Made by a program: the position numbers and the translations under genes
Shown: piece by piece, positions 33,013 through 50,294 of the stretch
Layout of the letters: each line of letters starts with the position of its first letter
How positions within the stretch are numbered: the stretch's first letter is position 1
Notes under the pieces: generated by a model
What the model saw: only the letters and a program-made list of their open reading frames with translations
Databases searched by the model: none
What the model was told of the DNA's origin: nothing
Assembly: GCA_003281085.1 (NCBI GenBank)
Contig: QCCZ01000004.1
Coordinates: forward strand, 3,419-67,418
Length of the DNA: 64,000 nt
Reading direction: 5' to 3'
Origin: OCS155 cluster bacterium AG-349-E07
GTDB taxonomy: Bacteria > Actinomycetota > Acidimicrobiia > Actinomarinales > Actinomarinaceae

Positions 33013-33034
33013 TTTTTCTCCTTTTATTAACTTG

Positions 33035-33108: not shown

Positions 33109-33129
33109 ATAAGACTTATTTTAGCCTCT

Positions 33130-33202: not shown

Positions 33203-33206
33203 CAAA

Positions 33207-36083: not shown

Positions 36084-36092
36084 AAATAAAGT

Positions 36093-36443
36093 TTAAATGA
36101 TTTGTCCTGGATTGCCTTCAGAGTCATAAATTTCTTTAGTAAAGTTTCTTAACTCTTTCATTCCGCCAGACATGTTATAGGCTTCTAAATCTTGTGAAAT
36201 CATATAGTTAGTTACCCTGGCTGATCTTGAACCAGACCGACATACAAATATATATTTTTCATTTTGGTGAAAACTATTCATATTATCCATTATTTCTCCC
36301 ATTGGAATATGAATAGCATTTACGTGGTGGCCAGATGTCCATTCATCGTTTTCTCTGACATCAACAAGTACACATCCTTCTTGTATCAAATTTTCAACTT
36401 CATTTGGTTGAACCGATGGAGTACTATTAATACCTAATTCCAC
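36093..36443 (-). CDS. Single-domain rhodanese-like sulfurtransferase
   Basis: 116 aa with VDVRENDEWTSGH and the active-site loop CRSGSRS. Confidence 0.8.
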   Translation of the reverse strand: MELGINSTPSVQPNEVENLIQEGCVLVDVRENDEWTSGHHVNAIHIPMGEIMDNMNSFHQNEKYIFVCRSGSRSARVTNYMISQDLEAYNMSGGMKELRNFTKEIYDSEGNPGQII

Positions 36444-37263
36444 TTTGAGCTTGCCTTAGTCGTCTTACTCTTTCGATTGTTGGGGGATGAGTTGAAAATA
36501 ATTTACTAAAACTATTGCCAGAAAAAGCCTTTAATGGATCAGATATAAAAAGTTGACTAACTGCAGGGTTAACATTCATTGGAACTTTTGAGTATCGATC
36601 AATTTTTTCTAGAGCTGACGCTAAAGCTAATGGGTTACCTGAGATTTCTGCACCTGTTTTGTCAGCACCAAATTCTCTAGTCCTCGATATTGCCATTCTT
36701 ATGATTAAAGAAGCTATAGGGGCTGCAATAAATGCCAAAATTATTATTGCAGGATGTGTGTTTCTATTTCTGCTTCCACCACCCCAAAAAGCCATCCTAG
36801 ACATAAAAGAAACTGCAGCTGCCAACATTGCAGCAATACTAGATACTAAAATATCTCTGTTTTTTATATGTGATAATTCATGGGCCAAAACGCCTTCTAA
36901 CTCATCTCTATTAAGAAGGTTTAATATACCTGTAGTTACTGCAACTTTTGCGTTTTTTGGATTTCTACCTGTTGCGAATGCATTTGGTTGATCGCTATTA
37001 ATAACATACAGTTCTGGCATTGGCATCTTTTCTTTTTGAGTTAGGTGAGAAATAATTTGAGTTACTTCACTAAATTGTCCATCTTTTATTGGCTGAGCAC
37101 GAGTTGATTTTATAGCTAAATTGCCTGAGAAAAAATAGATGAATCCATTAAAAATTAAAGCAAAAAAAAGTGCTGAAACAAGATCAAAACCAAAAGCTGT
37201 TGCAGAAAACATTACTACTAGAGTCATAAGCGTTAGTAGAGCGGTAGTTTTTACAAAATTCAT
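36427..37263 (-). CDS. htpX: Zinc metalloprotease HtpX (M48 family)
   Basis: 278 aa with four TM segments, the HELSHIKNRD (HExxH) motif and the downstream EFGAD motif. Confidence 0.88.
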   Translation of the reverse strand: MNFVKTTALLTLMTLVVMFSATAFGFDLVSALFFALIFNGFIYFFSGNLAIKSTRAQPIKDGQFSEVTQIISHLTQKEKMPMPELYVINSDQPNAFATGRNPKNAKVAVTTGILNLLNRDELEGVLAHELSHIKNRDILVSSIAAMLAAAVSFMSRMAFWGGGSRNRNTHPAIIILAFIAAPIASLIIRMAISRTREFGADKTGAEISGNPLALASALEKIDRYSKVPMNVNPAVSQLFISDPLKAFSGNSFSKLFSTHPPTIERVRRLRQAQSGIRY

Positions 37264-37287: not shown

Positions 37288-38304
37288 TTATAACTTTTCT
37301 GCAATTAAACAGTAAAAGCCTCCTAAACCATTTGAATCAACAATTGCTTTCATTCCATTCAACTCAGAATTAATCTTTAATTTTTCAATTCCTTCAGCGT
37401 ATATATACTTTTCTTGCAATTCATCAAAAAAAATATTGAATCCATTATCAAGTAAAAAATCTCTTTGTAGTTTTAAAGTCACATCATAACCAAGGTATTT
37501 TAGTTCTCTAGATATAGAGGAGAAGTTTACGTCGTAAGTAATATCTAAGTTTCCTGGATCTTCAATAGGGTCAACAGATAAATGATGATTTTTGTATGTT
37601 CTTAACAATGAACTATACACTCTCTTATCCCTGTTTTGCTGTTCGTAACCATAATCAAAAAGTAAAATTTTTCCAGGATTGATTTTTTTAATGACTGAAT
37701 TTAAAAATTTATCAATATTGACTTGAATCTCGAACTCATAATCCTCATTTGGAACAATATTATTTTTATTTACCCAATCAAGTTCTAAATTTCTCATAGG
37801 TTTTAAGTCATATGCCAGTGAAGCCTCCTCAAGTAACACTACTTTTTCATACCAAATTTCATCTTTATATAATCCGATAGAGCATGGTATATTGTCTAAT
37901 ATTTCATTTCCAAAAATTAAATCAGATGTTTTGGTAGTTAATTCATCAAAACTTGTATGTGTGTTTATCCCTTTATTAATTAATTCTTTTCTTGCAGTAG
38001 AAGATAGTTCAACAGCAGTAATTTCTTTTATACCTATTTGTTCTATCAAGGAACCTGTACCAGAGCCTATTTCAATAATATTTTTTAAATTACTTTCAGA
38101 ATTGATCCAATTTCGTATTATTTTTCCAAAATATTTCGAAACTTCGGGAGATGTTAAAAAATCACCATCTTTATCAGACCTTACTTGATCAGTATTAAAA
38201 AATCCTAGTCTCGAATATAAAGCTTCCTCCATAAAAGTGTCGAAATATATAAATTCTGTGTCATATTTTTCATGTAAATAAGAGAAAAAGTTTTGTTTCG
38301 GCAA
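37288..38304 (-). CDS. SAM-dependent methyltransferase of the DUF185 / NDUFAF7 (MidA) family
   Basis: 338 aa with GDFLTSPEVSKYFGKIIRNW (the family TSPE(I/V)S..FG motif) and the SAM motif EIGSGTGSL. Its TTG start lies 3 nt after the nuoN stop. Confidence 0.65.
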   Translation of the reverse strand: MPKQNFFSYLHEKYDTEFIYFDTFMEEALYSRLGFFNTDQVRSDKDGDFLTSPEVSKYFGKIIRNWINSESNLKNIIEIGSGTGSLIEQIGIKEITAVELSSTARKELINKGINTHTSFDELTTKTSDLIFGNEILDNIPCSIGLYKDEIWYEKVVLLEEASLAYDLKPMRNLELDWVNKNNIVPNEDYEFEIQVNIDKFLNSVIKKINPGKILLFDYGYEQQNRDKRVYSSLLRTYKNHHLSVDPIEDPGNLDITYDVNFSSISRELKYLGYDVTLKLQRDFLLDNGFNIFFDELQEKYIYAEGIEKLKINSELNGMKAIVDSNGLGGFYCLIAEKL

Positions 38305-38307: not shown

Positions 38308-39786
38308 TTAATTGCCAAAAAATATCGAGGATACTTCTCCGAGATAACTGAAAATCCCTGGAAAGATTCCAGAAACAAATGTTATTAGAACAGTGAATAC
38401 ACCAACCACTTTAAGAGGATTTTCAAATTGAAAAATTTTCTCCTCATTGATAGATTTAGGTTCATCCATCCATATAACTTTTGATATTCTCGCATAATAA
38501 ACTAAAGCAATTACAGCATTTATTGCACCAACAACTCCGAGAGCAATTCCAATTGAATTTGCAGAGCCTAATAAGCTTCTAAATACTACAAACTTTGCGA
38601 ACCAACCACCTAAAGGTGGTATTCCCGCAAGTGAGAAAAAGAAGATTGTTGTTAAGACTCCGGCTAGAGGTGATTTTCTCGCAGCCCCTCCCCACTCATA
38701 GAAGTTTGTTGATCCGGCATAATTACTAAAAAGATGCACGGACAAGAATGCTCCTAAATTCATAAATGCGTAAATAATCAGATAAGTAACACTTGCAAAA
38801 ATTCCATCTTGATAATCTCCGGTAATTCCAGATATTGCAATTGGGGCTAATATAAAACCAGCTTGCGAAATAGATGAATAAGCTAAAAGTCTAACTGGGT
38901 TATTTTGTTGCAATGCGACCAAATTACCAAGTGTCATGGTCAAGCCTGAGATAATCACAAGAATTATCCCCCAGCTTGATCCTGATCCTGCAAAAACTTT
39001 GGTTAATAAAATTATGAGAGCAACAAAACCAGTTGCTTTTGAACTTACAGATAGATATGCAGTTACAGGTAAGGGTGCTCCCTCGTAAGTGTCTGGTGCC
39101 CATGAATGAAAAGGAACTACGGAAATCTTAAATCCAATTCCAGATATTACTAATATTGCACTCAGTAATACTACTGGAGAATTAGCAAGTGATGCACCAA
39201 GCAAATATGAAGAGATCTCGGAAAAAACTAGTTTGCCTGAAAGACCATACAGAAGCGAAAATCCATACAATATAAGAGAAGCTGATAATACGCCTAAGAG
39301 AAAAAACTTAATTGCACCCTCATTTGATTTTCGATCACCTTTTTTCCATCCAGAAAGTAAAAACATCGGAGTAGAGGCAAGTTCAATACCAATAAATATA
39401 GTTAACAAATCCCTAGAAGAACTGACTATTAGTGCACCTAAAAGAGAACTTAATAATAAGTAGTAATATTCTCCTTGGTAATACTTATCGCTTTCAATGA
39501 AGTTAATTGAGAGAAGGAAGGTTAAATAAGTAATTAATATAAATAATCCTTTTAAAATAATTGAAAATTTGTCAATAACAAAGCTATTTTCAAAAGCATA
39601 TATAGGTGTCGTATAGCTTGCCCATTGAATTACTAAAGGTGCCAAAGAAAATAAAGTTCCAAGAAGTGCAAAAGCAGCTACATAATATTTTGATTTTCTT
39701 GGAAGAATCAAATCAAGAACTAGTGTTCCAACTATGGTAAAAACTACAATAAGTTCAGTAGATATTGCAAAATAATTTATAGAAAT
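38308..39786 (-). CDS. nuoN: NADH-quinone oxidoreductase subunit N (start probably non-canonical, upstream of the track's TTG 39711)
   Basis: Antiporter-like protein with FKISVVPFHSWAPDTYEGAP. The frame stays open upstream to 39828 and encodes a TM1-like KISINYFAISTELIVVFTIVGTLVLD with no ATG/GTG/TTG. ATT at 39786 follows GGGGG. Confidence 0.85.
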   Translation of the reverse strand: MSINYFAISTELIVVFTIVGTLVLDLILPRKSKYYVAAFALLGTLFSLAPLVIQWASYTTPIYAFENSFVIDKFSIILKGLFILITYLTFLLSINFIESDKYYQGEYYYLLLSSLLGALIVSSSRDLLTIFIGIELASTPMFLLSGWKKGDRKSNEGAIKFFLLGVLSASLILYGFSLLYGLSGKLVFSEISSYLLGASLANSPVVLLSAILVISGIGFKISVVPFHSWAPDTYEGAPLPVTAYLSVSSKATGFVALIILLTKVFAGSGSSWGIILVIISGLTMTLGNLVALQQNNPVRLLAYSSISQAGFILAPIAISGITGDYQDGIFASVTYLIIYAFMNLGAFLSVHLFSNYAGSTNFYEWGGAARKSPLAGVLTTIFFFSLAGIPPLGGWFAKFVVFRSLLGSANSIGIALGVVGAINAVIALVYYARISKVIWMDEPKSINEEKIFQFENPLKVVGVFTVLITFVSGIFPGIFSYLGEVSSIFFGN

Positions 39787-39788
39787 TT

Positions 39789-41357
39789 TTAACCCCCAAA
39801 GGCTTTGGATAGCATGGCTATAACTGCATCATTCGTTGCACCAAATATTAATTTAGGAAATACCCCAATTAATACTGTTAAAACAACTAGTGGAATCCAT
39901 GCTGAAAGCTCATAAACATCTGCATCATGAAGATCTTTGTCTAACCATTCATCTGATGGCTCTCCTAAATTAACTCTTTGTAACATCCAAAGTAAATAAC
40001 CTGCGGTTAAGACAGTTCCAATAGCACCGGCAACCATCGAAGTTCTAAATACAGTTATATTTAAACCATCTAATGGATTGTAAGCTCCTAATAAAGCCAT
40101 GAATTCTCCCCAAAAGCCAGCAAGGCCTGGGAGGCCTAATGAAGCCATCGCAGTAAACCCTAACAATGCACCCGTTTTTGGGAGTAACTTCATGTTTCCT
40201 CCTAATCTGCCCATATCTCTTGTGTGGTAAGTATGTGCCATAGAGCCTGACAAGAAGAAAAGTAATCCAGTGATTACCCCATGAGCAACCATTCCTATCA
40301 TTGCGGCATTAATTCCTATAGGCGTTAAAGATGCTATTCCTAACATAACAAAACCCATATGACCGACTGATGAAAAAGCGATTAGTCTCTTTAAATCTGT
40401 CTGTGCAAGGCAAGCCAAAGATCCATATATAATTCCAATTGCCGAAAGAATGGCTATTGCTGGAGCCCATGCTTTTGCCTGATCTGGAAGTATAGGTATT
40501 GCAATTCTGACAAAACCGTATGATCCAAGCTTCAATAAAATTGCTGCCAGTAATACTGAGCCAACAGTCGGTGCTGCTGTGTGAGCATCTGGAAGCCATG
40601 TGTGAAGAGGCCACATTGGGACTTTTACAGCAAAACCCAAAAATAATACTGCAAATACCAGCGTTGCAAATGTTCCTGTAAATGCGCCTGAGGTTCCCAA
40701 CTCAATTAACTCAGGAATACTAAATGTTTTATTTCCCCGATAATAAAGTCCCAAAAAACCAAGAAGCATAAAAGCAGATCCAAATAATGTGAAAACAAAA
40801 AACTTAATACTTGCATAAAGCCTCGTCTCTATTTGATTTTTAAATCCAGATACAGTCCTTACAGTTTTATCGCCCCATATTCCGATCATAAAATACATAG
40901 GTAGTAATACAATTTCAAAAAATACGAAGAAAAGAATCAAATCTAAAGCTACAAATGTTCCATTCATTCCTGTTTCAAGAACGAGTATTAAAGCTAAAAA
41001 ACCTTTAGGACTTTTTGGTTCAGGTAAATGCTCTATTGAATAAATTATTGCTAGTACGGTAATAAAAGTTGATAACACTAAAAGAGGGAGAGATATACCG
41101 TCTATGCCAATTTCATAATTTGCATTTATACTTTTTATCCATGATATTTTATTACCAAGTTGGAGTTTGTCGGCTGAGGAAAAATCAAATTGAAATAGTA
41201 AGACTGCACTTAAAACAAAAGTGATGAGTGAAGAAACTAATGCAAACCTTTTAATTAATTGTTCCTGAGCTTTTGGTATCAATGTAATTATAAATGCACT
41301 AATCAAAGGGAAAAAGACTACAACAGAAAGCCCCATACCATTTGTCAATAATTCCAC
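39789..41357 (-). CDS. nuoM: NADH-quinone oxidoreductase subunit M
   Basis: 522 aa, antiporter-like, about 14 TM, with the block VPMWPLHTWLPDAHTAAPT. Confidence 0.93.
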   Translation of the reverse strand: MELLTNGMGLSVVVFFPLISAFIITLIPKAQEQLIKRFALVSSLITFVLSAVLLFQFDFSSADKLQLGNKISWIKSINANYEIGIDGISLPLLVLSTFITVLAIIYSIEHLPEPKSPKGFLALILVLETGMNGTFVALDLILFFVFFEIVLLPMYFMIGIWGDKTVRTVSGFKNQIETRLYASIKFFVFTLFGSAFMLLGFLGLYYRGNKTFSIPELIELGTSGAFTGTFATLVFAVLFLGFAVKVPMWPLHTWLPDAHTAAPTVGSVLLAAILLKLGSYGFVRIAIPILPDQAKAWAPAIAILSAIGIIYGSLACLAQTDLKRLIAFSSVGHMGFVMLGIASLTPIGINAAMIGMVAHGVITGLLFFLSGSMAHTYHTRDMGRLGGNMKLLPKTGALLGFTAMASLGLPGLAGFWGEFMALLGAYNPLDGLNITVFRTSMVAGAIGTVLTAGYLLWMLQRVNLGEPSDEWLDKDLHDADVYELSAWIPLVVLTVLIGVFPKLIFGATNDAVIAMLSKAFGG

Positions 41358-41367
41358 TTTTCCCCTC

Positions 41368-43383
41368 CTATGTTATAAATAAAATTAATAAACTAATTGT
41401 CACTACGCCACCTAAAAATAGCATTAAATATTGTTGTGTCTTGCCCGTTTGTAACAATTTAACCTTACCGCCAAAATTATCAGTTCCGGTTGAAGACATG
41501 TTTAACAATTTATCAATTCCATTTTGATCAAAATTATTGTACACAACACTACCCATTAAGGAAGCAACTTGTCCAAAACCATTTACAAATCTATCAATTA
41601 CATTTGTGTTAAATTTATCTACGGCTTTAGAAATATTAATTTTTACTGGATCAATTACAAACTTGAAATAAAAGTGATCTAGATAATATTTGTTTTCAAG
41701 AACTGACCATATAGGTTGAATTTTAATTTTATTATCACCTGTTTCTGCGCTTCCTTGCAACTGATATAAGTAATATCCAAGTGCGATACCTAGCAAACCA
41801 GCTAATAAGCCACTCGATAGTGCGAATAAGTCAAAGCTTTCCGGATGGTATTCAACAATTTTATTCTTCCTTGTTGTAACCCAGTCTGTAAATCCTGTGT
41901 AAACCCCAGGAATATTTACCCAACCTGAGGCTATTGCAAAGACAGACAGTGTTAGAAGCGGAGTTGTCATGAGATTGTGTGATTCGTGAGGATGGCCATG
42001 GCCTCTATACTCTCCAAGGAATGTTAAAGAAACTGCTCGAGTCATATAAAATGCTGTTATAAATGCACCTAAAACTGCTATAAAAAAGAAAGTAGTTTCT
42101 CCCTCATGATTAAATGAAGCAAGAATTTCATCTTTAGAGAAAAAACCTGCAAATGGTGGGAGTCCAGCTAAAGCAATAGTTCCAATTATGAATGTAGCAA
42201 ATGTCTTTGGCATAACTTTTCTCAAACCACCCATTTCTAACATACTATTGCTATGAACAGAGTGGATTACAGAACCTGCTCCTAAAAACAATAAAGCTTT
42301 GAAAAATGCGTGTGTCCACAAATGAAATAATGCAGCGGTATATGCGCCTGAACCAATTGCAGCAACCATATATCCCAACTGACTTACTGTTGAGTATGCA
42401 AGTACCTTTTTTAGATCGTCTTGTACAACCGCAATTAATCCAGCAGCTAATAAAGTAATAACACCGAAAAGCATCACAACATCTAATGCATCTGGTGCCA
42501 TTGCTTTATAAAATGGAAACATTCTTGCTAATAAATAAACACCAGCTGTGACCATTGTTGCTGCATGCATTAGTGCAGAGACAGGTGTTGGACCAGCCAT
42601 AGCATCAGGCAACCAAACATGTAATGGAAATTGAGCACTCTTACCCATCGCACCAACAAATAATAAAATTGCAGCAACAAACGCAACGGTAGATAACTTT
42701 TCATAATCATGTGTTGACTGATAAAGAATTTTAGAAATTCTCAATGTTCCAGTGTTTAAAGCTAAAATGATTATTCCAATCATCAACCCTACATCAGCTA
42801 TTTTATTTGTAATAAAAGCTTTCATGGCTGCAGAGGAATTATCTTTCTTCTCCCAGTAGTGACCTATTAGTAAGTAAGAGCAGACTCCAACAAGTTCCCA
42901 TCCAATTAAAATTTGAATAAGAGTTGGAGAAGATACTAAAACTAACATGCTTCCGGCAAATAGAGTTAGCGATGTAAAGAAAAAAGTATATCTAATTTCA
43001 CCTTCCATATAATTTGTTGCATAAATGAAAACAAGTAACGCAACCGTTCCAACAACAAAATACATCATTATTGATAGTCCGTCGACTACCCAGCCAAACT
43101 CAATATCAAATACACCAATACTTCCAACGTTTATAAAAAATTCATTTACAACACCACTTGTGATGTGTAAGTACATTAGTGCGGCACTGTACAAAAATAT
43201 TATTCCAATAGTAGTTAGGGCTACTTCTGCTCCTTTCAAAGGTAAATATTTACCTGTAAAAGTTATGACTAATGCAGCCACAAAGGGTAACACTACTAAT
43301 AACCAAGCATACTCTGCTAAGATTCCCCCGTCGGTGTAAACTAATTCACCTTCAGCAAAAACAGTGGGTTTGAAATTTACCAT
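41368..43383 (-). CDS. nuoL: NADH-quinone oxidoreductase subunit L
   Basis: 671 aa with the block SAQFPLHVWLPDAMAGPTPVSALMHAATMV and a long C-terminal extension typical of NuoL. Confidence 0.93.
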   Translation of the reverse strand: MVNFKPTVFAEGELVYTDGGILAEYAWLLVVLPFVAALVITFTGKYLPLKGAEVALTTIGIIFLYSAALMYLHITSGVVNEFFINVGSIGVFDIEFGWVVDGLSIMMYFVVGTVALLVFIYATNYMEGEIRYTFFFTSLTLFAGSMLVLVSSPTLIQILIGWELVGVCSYLLIGHYWEKKDNSSAAMKAFITNKIADVGLMIGIIILALNTGTLRISKILYQSTHDYEKLSTVAFVAAILLFVGAMGKSAQFPLHVWLPDAMAGPTPVSALMHAATMVTAGVYLLARMFPFYKAMAPDALDVVMLFGVITLLAAGLIAVVQDDLKKVLAYSTVSQLGYMVAAIGSGAYTAALFHLWTHAFFKALLFLGAGSVIHSVHSNSMLEMGGLRKVMPKTFATFIIGTIALAGLPPFAGFFSKDEILASFNHEGETTFFFIAVLGAFITAFYMTRAVSLTFLGEYRGHGHPHESHNLMTTPLLTLSVFAIASGWVNIPGVYTGFTDWVTTRKNKIVEYHPESFDLFALSSGLLAGLLGIALGYYLYQLQGSAETGDNKIKIQPIWSVLENKYYLDHFYFKFVIDPVKINISKAVDKFNTNVIDRFVNGFGQVASLMGSVVYNNFDQNGIDKLLNMSSTGTDNFGGKVKLLQTGKTQQYLMLFLGGVVTISLLILFIT

Positions 43384-43682
43384 TTCATTAAATCAAATTC
43401 GTTTATGTTAGCTGTTTGTCTGTTTCTAAATAACATGAGTACAATCGCTAATCCTATGCCTACTTCAGCTGCTGCAATCGTAATAATAAAAATCGTAAAA
43501 ATTTGTCCCTGCATTAAAGTATCAGCGAGCATCGTATCAAACAAGATGAAATTAATATTTACAGAGTTAAGAATGAGTTCGATAGATAAGAGAACCATTA
43601 CAGCATTCCTTCTGACTAATATTCCATAAATGCCTAGCGAAAATAAAGCAGCTGCTACTACTAAAACGGGTTGGACAATCAA
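43377..43682 (-). CDS. nuoK: NADH-quinone oxidoreductase subunit K
   Basis: 101 aa, three TM, with the block SIELILNSVNINF..AAAEVGIGLAI. Confidence 0.92.
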   Translation of the reverse strand: MIVQPVLVVAAALFSLGIYGILVRRNAVMVLLSIELILNSVNINFILFDTMLADTLMQGQIFTIFIITIAAAEVGIGLAIVLMLFRNRQTANINEFDLMKW

Positions 43683-44197
43683 ACTTGATCCTCATCAATT
43701 AGTGCTTCATCTTTTCTAGCTAATGTTATTCCTCCAATTAGAGCAGCAAGTAAAACAAACGAAACTAATTCAAAGGGAAAAACAAATCTACTAAGCAGTA
43801 TTTCTCCTAGCAGTTCAGTAGAAGAGCCGGAAGTTACGACAACTTGGCCATCAAATCCATTTACTAATATGTATGAAAACAAGAAAAATATTGAGCCTGC
43901 GATTGCCGCCCCTAATTTTTTATTTTTATCGTTATCAAGCTCGGCATTTTTTCCTAATGGTGCCCGAGTAATCATAATTCCGAATAAAAAGAGAACTATA
44001 ACCGCGCCAATATATACAAGCACTAATACAAGAGCAACAAACTCCGTTGAAAGAAGTAAAAATAATACAGAAGTCAAGGCTAGTGTAAACACAAGGGATA
44101 TAGCAGCATGAATCACGTTTGAAGTTGTTACTACCCTAAGAGCGGTTGAAACCAATAAAAGAAGAACGAAGTAAGTTACAATCTCAAAAATTTCCAT
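43679..44197 (-). CDS. nuoJ: NADH-quinone oxidoreductase subunit J
   Basis: 172 aa, five TM. Its position between nuoI and nuoK and its YIGAVIVLFLFGIM block support the call. Confidence 0.88.
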   Translation of the reverse strand: MEIFEIVTYFVLLLLVSTALRVVTTSNVIHAAISLVFTLALTSVLFLLLSTEFVALVLVLVYIGAVIVLFLFGIMITRAPLGKNAELDNDKNKKLGAAIAGSIFFLFSYILVNGFDGQVVVTSGSSTELLGEILLSRFVFPFELVSFVLLAALIGGITLARKDEALIDEDQV

Positions 44198-44199
44198 TT

Positions 44200-44685
44200 T
44201 TAACTTTCGAGTCCCTCAGGATCTGGAACAGTTTGGAGCCAATCGTCTAGGCGTTCTTTGTCGTGCAACATGTCACCCATGTTGAATTCAGAATATTCAT
44301 ATTCTGGTGACCAAAACAAAGCATCGAATGGGCAAACTTCTACACAAATTCCACAATACATACATAGTGCATAGTCAATGTCAAACCTGTCCAAGACAGC
44401 TCTACTTCTTTGTCTACCTCCAGGTTTTGAAGGAGGTTGTAATTCTTTATGGCCTTCTATATAAATACACCAATCAGGGCACTGTCGTGCACACAACATA
44501 CAACTGGTGCATGCTTCTTGGTCTAAAGCAATAACCCCTCTTGCTCTTGGTGCGACTTTTTCTTTTTCAAATGGATAGTTGACATTTGGTTTTGAATGGA
44601 ATGGAGATAAAGTTTTAAGCATATTTACAATGACAATTTTTATTCCGATTAAAAATCCTGGTATTTTTGGCTTGAATGTCTTCAT
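44200..44685 (-). CDS. nuoI: NADH-quinone oxidoreductase subunit I
   Basis: 161 aa with two 4Fe-4S ferredoxin motifs, CTSCMLCARQCP and CMYCGICVEVCP. Confidence 0.93.
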   Translation of the reverse strand: MKTFKPKIPGFLIGIKIVIVNMLKTLSPFHSKPNVNYPFEKEKVAPRARGVIALDQEACTSCMLCARQCPDWCIYIEGHKELQPPSKPGGRQRSRAVLDRFDIDYALCMYCGICVEVCPFDALFWSPEYEYSEFNMGDMLHDKERLDDWLQTVPDPEGLES

Positions 44686-45656
44686 TAAAATCCAACTTTC
44701 ATAATTGCAGTTACAAGAATATTAACTAAAGATGCCGGAATAAGTATCTTCCAAGCAAGGTTTTGTAATTGATCTTCTCTAAATCTTGGTTGTGACCACC
44801 TTATTGCTACCAAGATAAAACCTAAAATAGCAGTTTTAGTTAAGAGAACAACAGGTCCATAAAAGTTTACCCATTCTGTTGGTAGTAGAGGCACATGATA
44901 ACCACCAAGAAATAGTGTTGAAGCAATAGCACATAAAATGAACATATTCATGTATTCAGAAATATAAAAAATAAGAAATCTAATCCCAGAATATTCTGTC
45001 ATAAATCCCATAGTTAATTCTGATTCACCAATTGGCATATCAAATGGCACTCTCATCATTTCAGCTGTTGCGGCAACCATAAAAATTAGAAAACCAACTA
45101 TCTGTCCACCAACAACAAAAGGAACTCCCCATTCAATTTGTTTCTCTACGATCCCAACTAATGACATAGTTTCAGCTTGAATAACAACCCCGACTACAGC
45201 AAGTATCAGTGGGAGTTCGTATGCTATGAGCTGTCCTGCCGCTCTTAGTCCTCCCATAAGGGAGTATTTATTTGCTGATGACCATCCAGCAGTTAATACA
45301 CCTATGGTTCCTAAAGAGCTAATTGCAAGTGCAAAGAAAACACCTAGTTCTAAATCTGCAACTACTAATGTAGGACTCATTGGAACTACAGCAAAAAGAG
45401 CAACACAAGAAACCATAACATACGCAGGTGCCCATTTAAATACTGGCCTGTCAACTTCAGTTGGAATTATGTCTTCTTTTTGAACAAATTTTAGTATTTC
45501 AGCTAACGGAAATATAAAACCTCTAAGTCCAACATGTAAAGGCCCTGGCCTTCTCTGCATCCAGGAGGCACCTTTAACATCCATAATTGTAAAAATGATT
45601 GCGCCATTTAATGCAGCAAGTGCAAGAAAGCCAACTTTTGCTAAGACGTCTGTCAT
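44685..45656 (-). CDS. nuoH: NADH-quinone oxidoreductase subunit H
   Basis: 323 aa, eight TM, with NuoH/ND1 blocks (MQRRPGP..G, EFMTEYSG variant GFMTEYSG). Its start overlaps the nuoD stop by 4 nt. Confidence 0.93.
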   Translation of the reverse strand: MTDVLAKVGFLALAALNGAIIFTIMDVKGASWMQRRPGPLHVGLRGFIFPLAEILKFVQKEDIIPTEVDRPVFKWAPAYVMVSCVALFAVVPMSPTLVVADLELGVFFALAISSLGTIGVLTAGWSSANKYSLMGGLRAAGQLIAYELPLILAVVGVVIQAETMSLVGIVEKQIEWGVPFVVGGQIVGFLIFMVAATAEMMRVPFDMPIGESELTMGFMTEYSGIRFLIFYISEYMNMFILCAIASTLFLGGYHVPLLPTEWVNFYGPVVLLTKTAILGFILVAIRWSQPRFREDQLQNLAWKILIPASLVNILVTAIMKVGF

Positions 45657-46861
45657 CTGTCAACATCTCCCAACACAAAATCTAAACTACCCATTATTGC
45701 AATTAAGTCTGGTAGTAATGCACCCTCAAGCATAATAGGTAAAATTGAAACATTGCTAAATGAAGCTGTTCGAACTTTAAGCCTGTATGGTCCAAGCCCT
45801 CCATCTGAAATTATGTAGTAACCCATTTCTCCCTTTGGATTTTCAGCTCTTACATAAGTACGACCTTTAGGGACTTTTATAACTTTAGGAACTTTTGCTT
45901 GTAGCGGTCCAGAAGGCATTGAATCAATTGCTTGCAAAACTATTTTTGCTGACTCAACCATTTCTTTTACCCTGACGTCCCATCGATCGTAACAATCTCC
46001 ATTCTCTCCAACAGGAATATCGTAATCAAATTGATCATATGGCAAATAATCTGTTTGTGTTCTGAGGTCAGACTTAACTCCTGAAGCTCTAAGTATTGGC
46101 CCTGAAACACCATAGGCTTCTGCTGTCTCAGCAGTTAGTACTCCAACATTTTTTGTTCTTTTTTTAAATACTTCATTTCCACCTATTAAGTTCTGAAATT
46201 GATCAGCAGCTTCTATTACTTTTTCCATTGCAACTTTGGTATCTCTATAAAATCCAGCAGGTAAATCTTGAATATTTTTTTTCGAAGTAGGACCTGCTCC
46301 AGCTGCTGGTTTTACTCCACCTATTCGATTAAAGTTTGGATGAAAGCGACCACCAGTAACTGACTCAATTAAATCTAAAACTCTTTCTCTATCTTCCATC
46401 GCATAAAAAATCGGAGTTAATGCACCAACTTCAAGAGCATAAGCTCCATTAAATACAAAATGTGAAGAAATTCTAGCCATTTCAGTAAGAATTAATCTGA
46501 TATGTTTAGCTCTTTCAGGCACTTCAATTTCCATTAATCTTTCAGCACCAGCAATAAAAGGAATTTCATTAGAAAACCCTGCAACCCAATCAATACGGTT
46601 TACAAGTGTGGTTATCTGGGGATATGTTCTAACCTCTGCTAATTTTTCATATCCACGATGCATGTATCCAAGTACGGGTTTGACATCATGAACTTTTTCT
46701 CCATCTACTTTAGCGACCAATCTAAGTACTCCATGGGTTGATGGATGTTGAGGTCCAATGTTCAGCGTCATGTCTTCAGTTTCAATTTCTACTGATACAG
46801 ATGCCTCAGAAAAGTTATTCATATTTTGAGGATCTAGTGCATTAATCATCAGTTGTTTCAT
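45653..46861 (-). CDS. nuoD: NADH-quinone oxidoreductase subunit D
   Basis: 402 aa with NIGPQHPSTHGVLRLV, GYMHRGYEKL and the C-terminal SLDFVLGDVDR. Confidence 0.95.
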   Translation of the reverse strand: MKQLMINALDPQNMNNFSEASVSVEIETEDMTLNIGPQHPSTHGVLRLVAKVDGEKVHDVKPVLGYMHRGYEKLAEVRTYPQITTLVNRIDWVAGFSNEIPFIAGAERLMEIEVPERAKHIRLILTEMARISSHFVFNGAYALEVGALTPIFYAMEDRERVLDLIESVTGGRFHPNFNRIGGVKPAAGAGPTSKKNIQDLPAGFYRDTKVAMEKVIEAADQFQNLIGGNEVFKKRTKNVGVLTAETAEAYGVSGPILRASGVKSDLRTQTDYLPYDQFDYDIPVGENGDCYDRWDVRVKEMVESAKIVLQAIDSMPSGPLQAKVPKVIKVPKGRTYVRAENPKGEMGYYIISDGGLGPYRLKVRTASFSNVSILPIMLEGALLPDLIAIMGSLDFVLGDVDR

Positions 46862-47387
46862 CGCTTTCTGATTCTTCAGGCATTCCTTCTACATCAACAT
46901 CTCCCGGCCAAGGCTTTACTTCCCTACTAATTAGTTCAAAAGATTTAAGCATAGGATTGCCTTCGTATCCGTCAGGAAGATATAATTTTTCAAGATTTGG
47001 ATGATTTTCAAAATTTATTCCAAACATTTCGTGTGCTTCTCTCTCATGCCAGTTTGCTCCTGCATACACTTCTATAAGAGAGTCAATCTTTGGATCTGAT
47101 TTACCAATACTTGTCGAAACAACAATTAAATTAGTATTTGCTAAGTCCGATAAGCATGTAATTACTTCGAAACAGGGTGAAACGCTTTCTTTAGGAGCTT
47201 CACCAACAGAAACATCATTGTCCCAATCTACTGCTGAAAGCCAGGAGAAAAATTTCAAATTAAATTCATCTCTAAGTTTTTTATGTGCTTCAATCCACTC
47301 TGTTGAGTCAACTTTAATATTTATTGTTTCAAACTCTAATACAGCGTCTTTAAAGCTTTCTTTTATATTGTTATAAAATTCTTCCAT
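46842..47387 (-). CDS. nuoC: NADH-quinone oxidoreductase subunit C
   Basis: 181 aa with the 30-kDa subunit motif ANWHEREAHEMFGINFENHP and an acidic C-terminal tail. Confidence 0.92.
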   Translation of the reverse strand: MEEFYNNIKESFKDAVLEFETINIKVDSTEWIEAHKKLRDEFNLKFFSWLSAVDWDNDVSVGEAPKESVSPCFEVITCLSDLANTNLIVVSTSIGKSDPKIDSLIEVYAGANWHEREAHEMFGINFENHPNLEKLYLPDGYEGNPMLKSFELISREVKPWPGDVDVEGMPEESESDETTDD

Positions 47388-47388
47388 C

Positions 47389-47886
47389 TTAAATTGGCTC
47401 AGTTTGAACTTCTGTCCATTTTTCTTTCATATCTTCTCCACGAATTTTTTTCTGAAGAAGAATTATGCCCTCCTGAAGTGCTTCTGGTCTTGGCGGACAA
47501 CCTGGAACGTAGACATCTACAGGAATTAGTTGATCGACGCCCTTGGTGACTGAGTAAGAATCCCAATATGGACCGCCACTATTAGAGCAAGAGCCCATTG
47601 AAATAACATACTTTGGTTCTGGCATTTGATCATAGAGCCTTTTGACAGAAGGAGCCATTTTGTCTGTTACTGTTCCAGCTACAATCATGAAATCAGCCTG
47701 TCGCGGAGATGCGGGAAGTGGAATTACTCCTAATCTCATAAAATCGTGCCTAGGTCCACTTACAGCCATAACTTCAATGGCGCAACATGCTAATCCGAAT
47801 TGAAAATACCAAAGTGAATATGATCTAGCCCAGTTAAAAACTGATGATATAGGTTTTGGAAGACCAAATTTGTCTATGACTCCCAC
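47389..47886 (-). CDS. nuoB: NADH-quinone oxidoreductase subunit B
   Basis: 165 aa with cluster-N2 ligand contexts [16 protein letters not shown] and VPGCPPRPE. Confidence 0.95.
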
Positions 47887-48242
47887 TTAAGCACATCCTT
47901 TCTTATTGCATATATAAGACCAATTAAAAGAATGAATATAAAAACAAACATTTCAATTAATCCAAAATAACCCAGCTTTTCTAAATTAATAGCCCATGGA
48001 AATATGAAGACTGCTTCAACATCAAAAATTACGAAAAGTAAACCAAATATATAGTATCTAACATATGTTTGACTCCATCCTGTACCTACAGGGTCTACAC
48101 CACATTCATAAGTTTGCAGTTTTTCAGGATAAGGCTTGTTTGGTCTGAGCACAGAGGCCACCCCGAGTAATAATACAACAAGAAATAAGCCGAATCCCAG
48201 CACTGCTCCTATGGTCACGTAGTCTTGAAAATAAGAAATCAT
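47874..48242 (-). CDS. nuoA: NADH-quinone oxidoreductase subunit A
   Basis: 122 aa, three TM, with the YECGVDP motif. An in-frame stop lies two codons upstream of the ATG. Confidence 0.92.
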
Positions 48243-48323: not shown

Positions 48324-49412
48324 GTGATTAATAAAAATTTTTTAGAAGAACCCAACATAGTAGATCTTGCCAAAGAAATCTTTAAAGAAGTGGTTCAAAA
48401 TAAATTAGAAATAAATACAAGATTTAGTCTATTGTCAGATGATCTATATGAGGCAGACACTATAAACTTCATACTGGCTGACGGACTCGGTTATGAAAAT
48501 CTAAACAGTACAGATTCTTATCTAAATAAAAATGTTACAAAATCTATTAATACAACATTTCCTTCCTCAACAAACGTGGCTTTATCATCAATTTCGTTTA
48601 TGAAAAATCCGATTGAGCACGGGCTGATAGGTTACTACATGTATGACAAATCACAATACGGACTAATAAATGCATTAAATTGGAATGAAGATAATAAAAA
48701 TTTATTATTAGGTAATCATTTTCAAAAACAAAATTCAATTTGGAAAATTTTTAAAGAAAATAAAATTTATGCTTCTAATTTTCAGCCTAGAAATCTAGTA
48801 GGAACTCCTCTCTCAGATTGTCTATATGAGTTATCGAGCACTATTCCATATGACGATGAGCAAAATCTTTTAGAATTACTTTCAGAATCGACAATTTTGG
48901 AAAATAGATTTAATTTTATCTATTATCCCCTAATTGATGTTACGGCTCATATATTTGGGGTGAATTCAGAAGAGTGGCAGATAGAAATAACTAAATTTGA
49001 AAAATTGGTTAATGAGATTACAAATATAAGTAATAAGAAAACAAAAACTATTATTTCTGCTGATCACGGTCTTGTAAATATTAATACAGAAAATCGTCAT
49101 GATCTGAATTACAATGATGATTTACAAATATATGGAGATCAACGTTCAGTTTATATAAATGGATCTAAAGAGAGTGTTTTAGAAGCTTTTTCTCAAATAC
49201 CTGGTGTCTTATTGGAGAAACAAGAGTTATCTTGTCTCCTAGGTGAACCTACAAATGAATTTTTAGAATCAATTTATCCTGATTTTTGTTTTTTAGTTGA
49301 AGATAAAAATATTATTTATCCAAAACACCTTTCTGCACAGTTGAAGGGTTACCATGGAGGTTTGTCTAAAGAAGAAATAAAAATTCCAATAATTGAATTA
49401 TCTAACTACTAA
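48324..49412 (+). CDS. Alkaline-phosphatase-superfamily protein (nucleotide pyrophosphatase/phosphodiesterase-like)
   Basis: 362 aa with a GTG start. The N-terminal FILADGLGYENL and the later ISADHGL resemble the metal-site motifs of the AP superfamily. The subfamily is not assignable by eye. Confidence 0.55.
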   Translation: MINKNFLEEPNIVDLAKEIFKEVVQNKLEINTRFSLLSDDLYEADTINFILADGLGYENLNSTDSYLNKNVTKSINTTFPSSTNVALSSISFMKNPIEHGLIGYYMYDKSQYGLINALNWNEDNKNLLLGNHFQKQNSIWKIFKENKIYASNFQPRNLVGTPLSDCLYELSSTIPYDDEQNLLELLSESTILENRFNFIYYPLIDVTAHIFGVNSEEWQIEITKFEKLVNEITNISNKKTKTIISADHGLVNINTENRHDLNYNDDLQIYGDQRSVYINGSKESVLEAFSQIPGVLLEKQELSCLLGEPTNEFLESIYPDFCFLVEDKNIIYPKHLSAQLKGYHGGLSKEEIKIPIIELSNY

Positions 49413-49430
49413 ATTACTTATACTTGACAT

Positions 49431-50219: not shown

Positions 50220-50290
50220 TGGCACTGTCTTACATTGGATTATTTTTAATCATTATTCTGCTTATAGTTTTTGGAAAAAAAATTAAATAA
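50219..50290 (+). CDS. Candidate 23-codon hydrophobic micro-ORF
   Basis: MALSYIGLFLIIILLIVFGKKIK. Its ATG overlaps the upstream stop as TAATG. It is a single TM-like helix with a Lys-rich end and was too short for the ORF track. Confidence 0.3.
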   Translation: MALSYIGLFLIIILLIVFGKKIK

Positions 50291-50294
50291 GAGC

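What the first reader, a model, noticed from the sequence alone, without database searches (positions are those of the whole stretch)
38308..48242. Eleven-gene nuoABCDHIJKLMN operon with no NADH-oxidising module (nuoEFG absent)
Seen: the genes run A-B-C-D-H-I-J-K-L-M-N with overlaps or gaps of 10 nt or less. The nuoD stop overlaps the nuoH start by 4 nt (45653-45656), so there is physically no room for nuoE, F or G. NuoB (N2 cysteines), NuoI (two 4Fe-4S motifs) and NuoD look intact.

Established: NuoEFG carry the FMN/NADH site. Eleven-subunit complex-I-like enzymes without them, such as cyanobacterial/plastid NDH-1 and archaeal Fpo-type complexes, take electrons from other donors such as ferredoxin or F420H2 through different accessory subunits.

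Inference: this enzyme either uses a non-NADH donor or borrows an N-module encoded elsewhere. A second nuo-type operon ends at 62528-64000 and could be that source. No candidate donor-docking subunit is visible next to the operon.
Basis: partly seen in the sequence, partly recalled or inferred. Interest (0 to 1): 0.6.

Follow-up and report, generated by a model that had tools for sequence, protein, structure and literature searches.

The report
Known EFG-less complex-I paralog in Actinomarina
This is a real, intact eleven-gene complex-I-like proton pump without the NADH-binding module, sitting beside a complete 14-gene complex I in the marine actinobacterium Candidatus Actinomarina; it has already been described in the literature, and its electron donor is still unknown.

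Summary
Window 38308-48242 (minus strand) encodes nuoA-B-C-D-H-I-J-K-L-M-N. nuoD and nuoH overlap by 4 nt, and no NuoE/F/G homologue occurs anywhere in the 64 kb.

The window comes from Ca. Actinomarina (Acidimicrobiia). The second operon ending at 62528-64000 is a complete 14-gene nuoA-N with its own E, F and G in the closest available contigs. The two are therefore ancient paralogs (29-51% identity), not halves of one set.

The 11-gene order is conserved in 70 of 70 Acidimicrobiia species loci that span both nuoD and nuoI (72 of 72 that reach nuoH), under strong purifying selection (dN/dS 0.00-0.10).

This arrangement is already published for Actinomarinales (López-Pérez 2020; Bulzu 2021), and 11-subunit complex I is a known class.

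- NuoD is not canonical. The quinone-ligating Tyr (Thermus Tyr87) is Trp and Asp139 is Glu, and this defines an Actinobacteriota-wide NuoD clade.
- An NDUFAF7-family arginine methyltransferase gene follows nuoN by 3 nt.
- nuoN probably starts at ATT.

The donor is unresolved. Ferredoxin-type input at NuoI is the most likely. F420H2 or a borrowed NuoEFG is not excluded.

The parts
47874..48242 (-). nuoA (122 aa)
   Evidence: NCBIfam NuoA NF005839, E 6.5e-38. Orthologue conserved in Acidimicrobiia loci.
47389..47886 (-). nuoB (165 aa), carries cluster N2
   Evidence: NF005012 scores 232.8 bits, above its 116-bit cutoff. The tandem CC, the C in GSCSN and the C in PGCPP align with the PSST cysteines.
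46842..47387 (-). nuoC (181 aa), with an acidic C-terminal tail
   Evidence: PF00329, E 1.5e-31. TIGR01961, 93 bits.
45653..46861 (-). nuoD (402 aa), W-type. H43 = Thermus His38. R69 (46655-46657) = NDUFS2 Arg85. W92 (46586-46588) sits in place of Tyr87. E144 sits in place of Asp139. A 13-aa insert covers residues 185-197 (46271-46309).
   Evidence: NF004739 scores 417 bits, above its 360-bit cutoff. Residue-level alignment to Nqo4, NdhH and the 49-kDa subunit. Motif survey. Coordinates checked.
44685..45656 (-). nuoH (323 aa). Its start overlaps the nuoD stop by 4 nt.
   Evidence: NF004741, E 7e-85. Coordinates.
44200..44685 (-). nuoI (161 aa), two [4Fe-4S] motifs; the likely electron entry point
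   Evidence: TIGR01971, E 1.9e-25. All 8 Cys align with TYKY.
43679..44197 (-). nuoJ (172 aa)
   Evidence: NF005168, E 5e-28.
43377..43682 (-). nuoK (101 aa)
   Evidence: NF004320 scores 96.9 bits, above its 57-bit cutoff. Both membrane Glu residues are visible in the sequence.
41368..43383 (-). nuoL (671 aa), antiporter-like subunit with a long C-terminal extension
   Evidence: NF005141 scores 610.7 bits, above its 556-bit cutoff, and the match covers profile positions 3-582 of 615.
39789..41357 (-). nuoM (522 aa)
   Evidence: TIGR01972 scores 542.8 bits, above its 263.8-bit cutoff.
38308..39786 (-). nuoN (492 aa if it starts at the conserved ATT at 39784-39786; 467 aa from TTG 39711)
   Evidence: TIGR01770 scores 348.8 bits, above its 332.6-bit cutoff. 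The in-frame conserved N-terminus has no canonical start in any Actinomarina species, and an SD-like GGAGG/GGGGG lies 6 nt upstream of the ATT. The homology to NuoN2 begins at 39786.
37288..38304 (-). NDUFAF7/MidA-family methyltransferase (338 aa), 3 nt after nuoN; a probable 12th gene of the operon
   Evidence: PF02636 scores 87.1 bits, above its 23.3-bit cutoff. PDB relatives 4f3n, 5ztz (NDUFAF7 homologue) and 1zkd. The gene follows nuoN in 32 of the 33 Actinomarina loci that extend past nuoN (the exception, L031, ends 2 bp after nuoN) and in a second lineage, L167/L168. It also lies next to orphan W-type nuoD genes in L164-L166.
35127..37263 (-). htpX (36427-37263), rhodanese (36093-36443) and PfkB kinase (35127-36083). 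Same strand, with 24 nt gap, 17 nt overlap and 9 nt gap; possibly co-transcribed.
   Evidence: NCBIfam. Synteny conserved within Actinomarina only.
48324..50219 (+). Divergent neighbours: PF01663 phosphodiesterase-family gene (48324-49412) and DUF4349 (49431-50219)
   Evidence: Pfam. The PF01663 gene lies divergently upstream of nuoA in almost all Acidimicrobiia loci.
50295..51098 (-). Heliorhodopsin, between the two nuo operons
   Evidence: NF038020 scores 306 bits, above its 100-bit cutoff. This position was described in PMC7771536.
62528..64000 (-). nuoN of the second, canonical 14-gene operon (NuoN2, 490 aa)
   Evidence: TIGR01770-family hit. The exact protein occurs on L083 preceded by nuoM2 and nuoL2. 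Closely related contigs L121 and L085 show A-B-C-D-E-F-G-H-I-J-K-L-M-N.

Best explanation
[quoted passage not shown] It is an ancient paralog of the canonical 14-subunit NADH:quinone oxidoreductase encoded about 14 kb away in the same Ca. Actinomarina genome.

**Shown.**
- All eleven Q-module and membrane-arm subunits are present.
- The ligands for cluster N2 (NuoB) and for the two NuoI clusters are present.
- The lysine- and glutamate-bearing motifs of NuoL, M, N and K are present.
- NuoE, F and G are absent from the operon and from the window.
- Selection on all eleven genes is strongly purifying.

**Inferred.**
- Without an FMN/NADH site, electrons enter directly at the exposed distal [4Fe-4S] cluster of NuoI. 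The donor is a soluble low-potential carrier, most probably a ferredoxin, as in cyanobacterial NDH-1 and in FpoF-less Fpo.
- Electrons then pass through NuoI and N2 to the membrane quinone, presumably menaquinone.
- This drives proton pumping through NuoH/A/J/K and NuoL/M/N.

**Remodelled quinone site.** Trp replaces the Tyr that normally hydrogen-bonds and protonates the quinone headgroup. Glu replaces Asp139, and Ile replaces Phe146. Quinone binding, protonation and sensitivity to inhibitors are therefore expected to differ from the co-resident canonical enzyme.

**Role of the downstream methyltransferase.** The NDUFAF7-family enzyme encoded 3 nt downstream most likely dimethylates NuoD Arg69, the Arg of the HRGxE motif next to N2, during assembly. 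Only this NuoD paralog has that Arg; the canonical copy has Thr.
For: **Gene identities and order:**

**No E, F or G in the window:**

**Fe-S ligands:**

**Second operon is complete:**

**Paralog identity of 29-51%:**

**Conserved order.** A-B-C-D-H-I-J-K-L-M-N is kept in every Acidimicrobiia species locus that is long enough, with no room for inserted genes between D and H.

**Purifying selection.** dN/dS is 0.00-0.10 for all eleven genes and 0.15-0.26 for the methyltransferase.

**Family scoring.** Nuo-type NCBIfam models score above the Ndh and Fpo models for every subunit, and the Fpo models fall far below their cutoffs.

**W-type NuoD.** Alignment to Thermus Nqo4. Trp is present in all 80 genome loci L003-L082. 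Tyr and Thr (HTG...RMDY) are found in the canonical copy. The W-type sequences form one clade in a neighbour-joining tree.

**Methyltransferase.** Pfam and PDB matches. Its link to W-type NuoD is seen in three lineages.

**Literature.**
- NDUFAF7 dimethylates the HRGxE Arg (PMC9006661, PMC8042128).
- The Tyr binds the quinone headgroup (PMC8119997).
- Ferredoxin, F420H2 and flavodoxin are donors of other EFG-less enzymes (PMC4453560, PMC11238625).
Against: - No ferredoxin gene, ferredoxin-reducing enzyme or NdhS-like docking subunit is encoded in the window or in any related locus, so the donor assignment rests on analogy only.
- Actinomarina is described as an aerobe, and the source of reduced ferredoxin in it is not established.
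- The authors who first described the cluster favoured F420 (PMC7771536).
- Mutating the equivalent Tyr to Trp in model enzymes severely lowers decylubiquinone reduction (cited in PMC4758237). Quinone reduction by this enzyme is therefore assumed, not shown.
- The methyltransferase is not adjacent to the operon in the 41 non-Actinomarina Acidimicrobiia loci.
Confidence: 0.55

Rival explanations
1. An F420H2:quinone oxidoreductase working like archaeal Fpo. An F420H2-oxidising input subunit encoded elsewhere docks on the 11-subunit core.
For: López-Pérez et al. report a complete F420 biosynthesis pathway and F420-dependent oxidoreductases in Actinomarinales. They proposed this function on the basis of up to 35% identity to M. 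mazei Fpo (PMC7771536).
Against: - Every subunit scores higher against Nuo models than against Fpo models.
- The Fpo-specific NCBIfam models are far below their cutoffs: FpoD 339 vs 600, FpoH 237 vs 475, FpoL 376 vs 1050, FpoI 50 vs 180.
- About 35% identity is the background level across the whole complex I family.
- No FpoF/FrhB-like or FpoO gene lies next to the operon here. None showed up in the limited checks of related loci: similarity searches with this window's own genes across the 80 genome loci, ORF inspection of two and Pfam tables for L001/L002 and L167/L168. No FpoF/FrhB profile was run on them.
Confidence: 0.15
2. An NADH-dependent isoenzyme that borrows NuoE, F and G from the neighbouring 14-gene operon. 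One N-module gene set serves two membrane and Q modules.
For: - The two operons always co-occur about 14 kb apart in Actinomarina.
- In two other Acidimicrobiia loci (L044 and L077), nuoM/N-like genes also lie just upstream.
- Spero et al. list genomes with one nuoEFG set and two copies of the other genes (PMC4453560).
Against: - The subunits that would have to dock NuoG/E/F are only 51%, 30%, 40% and 29% identical to their canonical paralogs (B, C, D and I respectively).
- NuoD carries a clade-specific 13-aa insert.
- The divergence is ancient and the NuoD clades are separate in the tree.
- The same 11-gene type occurs as a compact operon without EFG in a separate lineage, L167/L168.
Confidence: 0.15
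3. Not a forward quinone reductase. Because of the remodelled quinone site, the enzyme either runs in reverse or uses a non-standard acceptor. Running in reverse would mean proton-motive-force-driven reduction of ferredoxin or another low-potential carrier by quinol, with the force supplied for example by the cell's proton-pumping rhodopsin.
For: - The strictly conserved quinone-ligating Tyr is Trp, Asp139 is Glu or Gln and Phe146 is Ile or Val across the clade.
- Equivalent Tyr-to-Trp mutants lose most decylubiquinone activity (PMC4758237).
- The canonical enzyme in the same cell keeps the Tyr, so the change is not explained simply by the type of quinone.
- The organism is a rhodopsin photoheterotroph.
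Against: - His38, the N2 ligands, NuoH and the full antiporter set are conserved and under strong purifying selection. That fits an ordinary coupled quinone enzyme.
- There is no direct evidence for reversal.
- Short-chain quinones are still reduced by Tyr mutants.
Confidence: 0.1
4. A decaying or non-functional duplicate of complex I that has lost nuoEFG.
For: It is a second copy in a 1.1-Mb streamlined genome. nuoN lacks a canonical start codon.
Against: - dN/dS is 0.00-0.10 for all 11 genes.
- The order and motifs are conserved across the class.
- The ATT start and its Shine-Dalgarno sequence are conserved.
- Retaining about 10 kb in a highly streamlined genome argues for function.
Confidence: 0.02

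Closest known systems
The 'truncated nuo paralog' of Ca. Actinomarinales described by López-Pérez et al. 2020 (PMC7771536) and Bulzu et al. 2021 (bioRxiv 10.1101/2021.02.01.429150)
   Same: It is the same locus. An 11-gene nuoABCDHIJKLMN lies next to heliorhodopsin and the afu iron-uptake genes, with a 14-gene nuo nearby. It is followed by NDUFAF7, htpX, pspE (rhodanese) and an adenosine-kinase-like gene.
   Different: The gene content is identical. In this window two plus-strand genes separate heliorhodopsin from nuoA, so the two cannot be a single transcript. The passages of those papers retrieved by my term searches do not mention the Tyr-to-Trp quinone site, the Arg/Thr difference between the NuoD paralogs or the ATT start of nuoN. 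I did not read either paper in full.
Bacterial 11-subunit complex-I-like enzymes (NUO11) of Bacillus cereus, Desulfitobacterium, Chlorobi and Bacteroides (Moparthi & Hägerhäll 2011, PMC3144371; PMC11238625)
   Same: Same gene order, no N-module, no NiFe-ligand cysteines in NuoD, and an unknown soluble donor with ferredoxin suspected. The best NuoD NCBIfam model is a bacterial NuoD equivalog (NF008974), not NdhH or FpoD.
   Different: The nearest NuoD outside the Actinobacteriota clade is at most 50% identical. Here the enzyme co-exists with a canonical complex I in an aerobe and has a W-type quinone site. Of the 126 nearest cluster representatives of at least 340 aa that were aligned, 98 keep Tyr.
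Cyanobacterial and plastid NDH-1
   Same: An eleven-subunit homologous core without NuoEFG. Ferredoxin donates to the NdhI clusters.
   Different: The Ndh-specific models are below their cutoffs (NdhH 354 vs 583). No NdhS/V/O/L-N type accessory genes are adjacent. NdhH keeps the Tyr.
Archaeal Fpo (F420H2:methanophenazine oxidoreductase)
   Same: A homologous 11-subunit core with a modular input.
   Different: No FpoF or FpoO is present, and the Fpo models are far below their cutoffs. Fpo keeps Tyr87 but lacks His38 and Asp139 (PMC4758237), which is the opposite pattern to this enzyme.
Streptomyces NuoD with Tyr87-to-Trp, reported in piericidin producers (Degli Esposti 2015, PMC4758237)
   Same: The same substitution at the same residue, in Actinobacteria. 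It was interpreted as conferring resistance to quinone-site inhibitors.
   Different: That paper called the substitution rare and producer-specific. Here it is invariant in a whole NuoD clade that spans the Acidimicrobiia NUO11 operons, a second NUO11 lineage and orphan nuoD genes of Nocardioidaceae. Whether the Streptomyces sequences belong to this clade was not tested.

Membership tests
Canonical 14-subunit NADH:quinone oxidoreductase (complex I, Nuo14) | NADH-oxidising N-module (NuoE, NuoF, NuoG) encoded with the other subunits | tested here: not met
   D and H overlap by 4 nt. tblastn with NuoE, F and G finds nothing in the window. No extra domains are present.
Canonical 14-subunit NADH:quinone oxidoreductase (complex I, Nuo14) | Quinone headgroup ligands Tyr87 and His38 (Thermus Nqo4 numbering) with Asp139 | tested here: not met
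   His is present (H43), but Tyr is replaced by Trp (W92) and Asp by Glu (E144).
[quoted passage not shown] | nuoA-B-C-D-H-I-J-K-L-M-N in one cluster without E, F or G | tested here: met
   The order is conserved in related loci.
[quoted passage not shown] | Cluster N2 ligands in NuoB and two [4Fe-4S] motifs in NuoI; NuoD lacks the NiFe-ligand cysteine pairs of hydrogenases | tested here: met
   Alignments. The NuoD N- and C-terminal motifs (QHPSTHG and LDFVLGDVDR) contain no cysteine.
[quoted passage not shown] | Three antiporter-like subunits plus NuoH/A/J/K with the conserved membrane charges | tested here: met
   NuoL, M and N score above the curated cutoffs. The conserved Glu and Lys motifs were read directly from the sequences, judged against motifs recalled from established knowledge of E. 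coli and Thermus.
Archaeal Fpo F420H2 dehydrogenase | FpoF (F420H2-oxidising) subunit, and Fpo-type orthology of the core subunits | tested here: not met
   No FpoF- or FpoO-like gene is in the operon or its flanks. FpoC, D, H, I, J, K and L models are all far below their cutoffs. A copy elsewhere in the genome could not be checked.
Cyanobacterial/plastid NDH-1 | Ndh-type orthology and oxygenic-photosynthesis-specific subunits (NdhL-S, V) | tested here: not met
   NdhH, I, F, D and B models are below their cutoffs. No such small genes are adjacent. The rest of the genome is not testable here.
NDUFAF7/MidA arginine methyltransferase family (PF02636, COG1565) | Methyltransf_28 domain with a SAM-binding glycine motif | tested here: met
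   PF02636 scores 87.1 bits, above its 23.3-bit cutoff. The sequence aligns with 4f3n, 5ztz and 1zkd, including the EIGSGTG motif.
NDUFAF7/MidA arginine methyltransferase family (PF02636, COG1565) | A substrate Arg in the HRGxE motif of the partner NuoD/NDUFS2 | tested here: met
   The operon's NuoD has HRGYE (R69). The canonical paralog has HTGME. The spacing to the His and Tyr positions matches NDUFS2 (PMC8042128).
NDUFAF7/MidA arginine methyltransferase family (PF02636, COG1565) | Symmetric dimethylation of that Arg | not testable with these tools
   This needs mass spectrometry of the native protein.

The most novel reading that the evidence does not exclude
Actinobacteriota possess a distinct 'W-type' lineage of the complex I quinone-module subunit NuoD.

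**Sequence signature.** The motif is HRG...NR[IH]DW. Trp replaces the otherwise strictly conserved quinone-ligating Tyr, Asp139 becomes Glu or Gln, and Phe146 becomes Ile or Val.

**Genetic link.** The lineage is coupled to an NDUFAF7-type arginine methyltransferase gene.

**Where it occurs.**
- As the NuoD of EFG-less 11-subunit operons, in Actinomarina and other Acidimicrobiia, and in a second abundant lineage.
- As an orphan gene next to the methyltransferase in Nocardioidaceae.

**Reading.** These enzymes have a different quinone chemistry from the canonical complex I in the same cell. The difference could be a distinct acceptor, a reversed direction or intrinsic insensitivity to inhibitors. 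On this reading, the Tyr87Trp earlier seen in piericidin-producing Streptomyces is a member of this clade rather than a producer-specific resistance mutation.
Probability: 0.3. Interest if true: 0.55.

Novelty: already known. Interest (0 to 1): 0.3.

Why it matters
Ca. Actinomarina is among the most abundant photoheterotrophs of the surface ocean, and its genome is only about 1.1 Mb. Keeping a second, roughly 10-kb complex-I-like operon in so small a genome implies an important role.

The electron donor of bacterial 11-subunit complex I is a long-standing open question. This locus does not answer it, and its existence is already in the literature.

What this analysis adds are several concrete, testable handles:
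- a clade-wide Tyr-to-Trp change in the quinone site;
- a partner arginine methyltransferase whose only plausible substrate Arg is in this paralog;
- related orphan nuoD genes in Nocardioidaceae, a family with cultured members in which the biochemistry might be done, although the three loci examined here are metagenome contigs.

Tried and rejected
- **Exact-protein look-up** of the ABC ATPase at 61640-62353 found nothing, probably because of the start-codon choice. NuoN2 and the ABC permease worked, but their contig stops inside nuoL2. I therefore used the metagenome scan with NuoL2.
- **Word-indexed protein search** with NuoD was saturated by Actinomarina sequences and gave no outgroup information. 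The exhaustive representative search was the informative one.
- **Cluster look-up** gave little taxonomy.
- **Sigma-70 promoter and terminator scan** of 34.5-51.5 kb returned fewer sites than the shuffled controls, so it says nothing about transcription units.
- **tRNA and Rfam scans** found only four tRNAs far from the operon.
- **HMM search for the methyltransferase** in the 41 non-Actinomarina Acidimicrobiia loci found none within about 10 kb. Inspection of ORFs downstream of nuoN in two of those loci (L050, L044) shows opposite-strand ORFs, so there is no conserved extra subunit.
- **'Split canonical set' and 'EFG fused into another gene'** are both rejected.
- **Fpo and NDH-1 membership** is rejected on the curated model scores.
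- **Open-access literature search** for a described natural Tyr-to-Trp NuoD clade found only the Streptomyces note.
- **Not done:** structure prediction. No complex modelling is available, and a monomer model would not discriminate between donors.

Full report
**1. What is in the sequence**

The window has about 35% G+C. On the minus strand between 38308 and 48242 there are eleven tightly packed ORFs. NCBIfam identifies them, in order, as NuoA, B, C, D, H, I, J, K, L, M and N.
- NuoB, D, K, L, M and N each exceed the curated cutoff of at least one Nuo model. The others match Nuo models at E-values between 1e-25 and 1e-85.
- The other junctions are overlaps of 1-20 nt or gaps of 1-10 nt.
- None of the eleven proteins has an extra domain.
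- tblastn with NuoE, F and G from the sister operon finds nothing anywhere in the 64 kb (best E 0.57-2.7).
- The four N2 cysteines of NuoB and both CxxCxxCxxxCP motifs of NuoI align residue for residue with mitochondrial PSST and TYKY.

**2. A detail at the M/N junction**

The first canonical start of nuoN is TTG at 39711, 77 nt after nuoM. The NuoN profile match then begins only at profile position 33.
- The upstream in-frame peptide KISINYFAISTELIVVFTIVGTLVLD contains no ATG, GTG or TTG.
- In every Actinomarina locus where the junction could be aligned, this N-terminus is conserved in frame. It begins at an ATT (ATC in one species) 6 nt after a GGAGG or GGGGG.
- High-G+C Acidimicrobiia have ATG or GTG at the homologous place.
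- Homology to the paralogous NuoN2 also starts at 39786.

nuoN therefore most likely starts at ATT 39786, 2 nt after the nuoM stop.

**3. Organism and the second operon**

A scan of one genome per species returned 80 loci encoding NuoD relatives.
- The closest (81-100% identity) are all Ca. Actinomarina / OCS155.
- The rest (68-73%) are other Acidimicrobiia.

The ORF at 62528-64000 is a second NuoN. The identical protein occurs on a contig where nuoM and nuoL precede it. In metagenome contigs with 98-99% identical NuoL (L121, L085), the upstream genes are nuoA, B, C, D, E (2Fe-2S thioredoxin-like), F (FMN domain plus 4Fe-4S), G (Fer2_4, NADH-G_4Fe-4S_3, molybdopterin domains), H, I, J, K, L, M and N. 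L121 is 89% identical at the nucleotide level to the window over NuoN2 and the downstream genes, so it comes from a close relative, not the same genome.

The genome type therefore has a complete canonical complex I plus this 11-gene paralog. Subunit identities between the two sets are 29-51%.

**4. Conservation**

- In all 70 species loci that span nuoD through nuoI (72 of 72 that reach nuoH), the order is A-B-C-D-H-I... with nothing between D and H.
- Against three Actinomarina orthologous loci, dN/dS is 0.00-0.10 for all eleven genes.

This is a functional enzyme, not a decaying duplicate.

**5. It is already described**

- López-Pérez et al. 2020 (PMC7771536) state that in Ca. Actinomarinales the heliorhodopsin gene always lies between two nuo operons. 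One of these lacks subunits EFG. They suggest F420 as the donor because of up to 35% identity to M. mazei Fpo and the presence of F420 biosynthesis genes.
- Bulzu et al. 2021 (bioRxiv 10.1101/2021.02.01.429150) list the same context: afuABC, heliorhodopsin, an 11-subunit nuo, NDUFAF7, htpX, pspE and an adenosine kinase. They note the nearby 14-subunit copy.
- Eleven-subunit complex I is a recognised class that includes Actinobacteria (PMC3144371). Its donor is generally unknown (PMC11238625; PMC4453560).

The window matches this description.

One correction applies to this window. Two plus-strand genes (PF01663 family, 48324-49412; DUF4349, 49431-50219) lie between heliorhodopsin (50295-51098, minus strand) and nuoA. 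Heliorhodopsin and nuo therefore cannot be one transcript here.

**6.

Alignment with Thermus Nqo4, cyanobacterial NdhH and the mitochondrial 49-kDa subunit gives these correspondences:

| Residue here | Equivalent | Status |
|---|---|---|
| H43 | Thermus His38 | conserved |
| R69 | Arg of the HRGxE motif (NDUFS2 Arg85) | present |
| W92 | Thermus Tyr87 | Tyr replaced by Trp |
| E144 | Thermus Asp139 | Asp replaced by Glu |
| I151 | Thermus Phe146 | Phe replaced by Ile |
| residues 185-197 | none | 13-residue insert |

Codon coordinates were checked.

That Tyr is described as strictly conserved and as binding the quinone headgroup (PMC8119997).
- The motif HRGYEK...NRIDW is present in all 80 genome loci L003-L082 (plus the two exact-match contigs L001 and L002).
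- The canonical paralog has HTGMEK...RMDY in all 27 contigs that cover it.

An exhaustive search of 1.84 billion cluster representatives shows that the Acidimicrobiia clade collapses into one 50% cluster. Its nearest full-length outsiders are at most 50% identical. Of the best 150 representatives, I aligned the 124 of at least 340 aa, plus the two window-lineage NuoD paralogs (126 in all): 98 have Tyr and 15 have Trp.

The W-type sequences with the NR[IH]DW motif form one clade in a neighbour-joining tree, apart from the canonical Actinomarina NuoD. The tree has no support values. Three other Trp-bearing sequences (P0133, P0166, P0185) fall elsewhere in it; two of them (P0133, P0166) are archaeal NuoCD fusions.

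The actinobacterial W-type clade also shows Asp139 changed to Glu or Gln and Phe146 changed to Val or Ile.

Degli Esposti (PMC4758237) had noted Tyr87-to-Trp in NuoD of piericidin-producing Streptomyces. He read it as a rare resistance change and recalled that the same mutation in model enzymes strongly lowers decylubiquinone reduction and confers inhibitor resistance. I found no description of it as a clade-wide trait, although my literature access is limited to open-access text.

**7.

The ORF 3 nt after nuoN (37288-38304) is a PF02636 Methyltransf_28 protein (87 bits). It is related to PDB 4f3n, 1zkd and the Dictyostelium NDUFAF7 homologue 5ztz, and its SAM motif is intact.

NDUFAF7 symmetrically dimethylates the HRGxE Arg of NDUFS2, next to cluster N2, and is needed for assembly. 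The modification also occurs in Paracoccus but not in E. coli, and Thermus has Thr at that position (PMC9006661 and PMC8042128). Here only the 11-gene operon's NuoD has that Arg. The canonical copy has Thr, as in Thermus.

The gene's distribution is as follows:
- It follows nuoN in 32 of the 33 Actinomarina loci that extend past nuoN; the exception, L031, ends 2 bp after nuoN.
- It overlaps the end of nuoN in a second W-type NUO11 lineage (L167/L168, 51% G+C).
- In three Nocardioidaceae-type genomes, a W-type nuoD homologue is an orphan gene lying 0-4 kb from a PF02636 gene and outside any nuo operon.
- It is not within about 10 kb of the operon in the other 41 Acidimicrobiia loci.
- Its dN/dS of 0.15-0.26 shows weaker but real constraint.

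The inference that it methylates NuoD R69 is well motivated but untested.

**8. Mechanism**

Shown: a complete Q-module and membrane arm with all Fe-S ligands, and no NADH site.

Inferred: electrons enter at the NuoI cluster that NuoG would otherwise cover, from a soluble low-potential carrier. They then pass via N2 to the membrane quinone, with proton pumping.

I favour ferredoxin as the donor, by analogy with NDH-1 and FpoF-less Fpo. Nothing in the sequence supports the alternatives, for these reasons:
- Every subunit scores higher on Nuo models than on Ndh or Fpo models, and the Fpo models are far below their cutoffs.
- No FpoF-like gene accompanies the operon here, and none turned up in the limited checks made on related loci.

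F420H2 (as the original authors proposed) and a shared NuoEFG remain possible. The remodelled quinone site leaves open a non-standard acceptor, a reversed direction or inhibitor insensitivity.

**9. Verdict**

The finding is real but already known for this organism, and it belongs to a known class.

This analysis adds three things: the W-type quinone site, the methyltransferase-Arg logic and the ATT start of nuoN. They make the open question more testable but do not change the category.

Noticed in passing
window 39784-39786 (minus strand), nuoM/nuoN junction: nuoN appears to start at a non-canonical ATT codon. The conserved N-terminus has no ATG, GTG or TTG in any Actinomarina species examined, and the ATT (ATC in one species) lies 6 nt after a GGAGG or GGGGG. 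High-G+C relatives have ATG or GTG at the same place.
   Followed up: yes
L164 8596-11203; L165 4033-9206; L166 3054-9224: In Nocardioidaceae/Propionibacteriales-type genomes, a W-type NuoD homologue (motif NRHDWLSA, about 400 aa) is an orphan gene. It lies outside any nuo operon, near panC/panD and cell-envelope glycosyl- and sulfotransferase genes, and always within 0-4 kb of a PF02636 (NDUFAF7-family) methyltransferase gene. Its role is unknown. It could be an alternative Q-module subunit.
   Followed up: partly
L167 and L168, 8446-19998: A second lineage, abundant in metagenomes (51% G+C, labelled only 'Actinobacteria bacterium'), has the same nuoABCDHIJKLMN with a W-type NuoD (NRIDWLGS; Asp139 is Gln). 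A PF02636 methyltransferase gene overlaps the end of nuoN. NuoL is unusually long there (773 aa).
   Followed up: partly
window 48324-49412 (+): A PF01663 (type I phosphodiesterase / nucleotide pyrophosphatase family) gene is divergently transcribed from nuoA. A homologue (21-28% identity in the non-Actinomarina loci) sits in the same position in almost all Acidimicrobiia NUO11 loci. This conservation is unexplained.
   Followed up: partly
window 48324-51098: Heliorhodopsin (50295-51098, minus strand) is separated from nuoA by two plus-strand genes. It therefore cannot be co-transcribed with the nuo operon in this genome, although a single transcriptional unit has been suggested in the literature.
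   Followed up: yes
window 45653-46861, NuoD residues 185-197 (46271-46309): A 13-residue insert (PAAGAGPTSKKNI) is present, among the aligned sequences, only in the query and two other NRIDW-type representatives (P0108, P0154). All other aligned NuoD sequences lack it, including those from solved structures and the NRIDWLGS (L167-type) and NRHDW groups. Its position relative to the NuoG docking surface was not determined.
   Followed up: no
P0133, P0166 (archaeal NuoCD fusions): Trp at the Tyr87 position also occurs in NuoCD fusion proteins labelled Methanofastidiosia and Methanonatronarchaeales. In the tree these fall outside the actinobacterial W clade, which suggests independent origins.
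   Followed up: no
window 1-33300: The rest of the window looks like the conserved ribosomal-protein and RNA-polymerase region, judged only from ORF sizes and order (ORFs of 1304 and 1138 aa at 21167-28501; not scanned against any family library), plus four tRNA genes (Trp 31780-31854; Met, Thr and Tyr at 33034-33289). Nothing unusual was seen. No Rfam families other than tRNA were found.
   Followed up: partly
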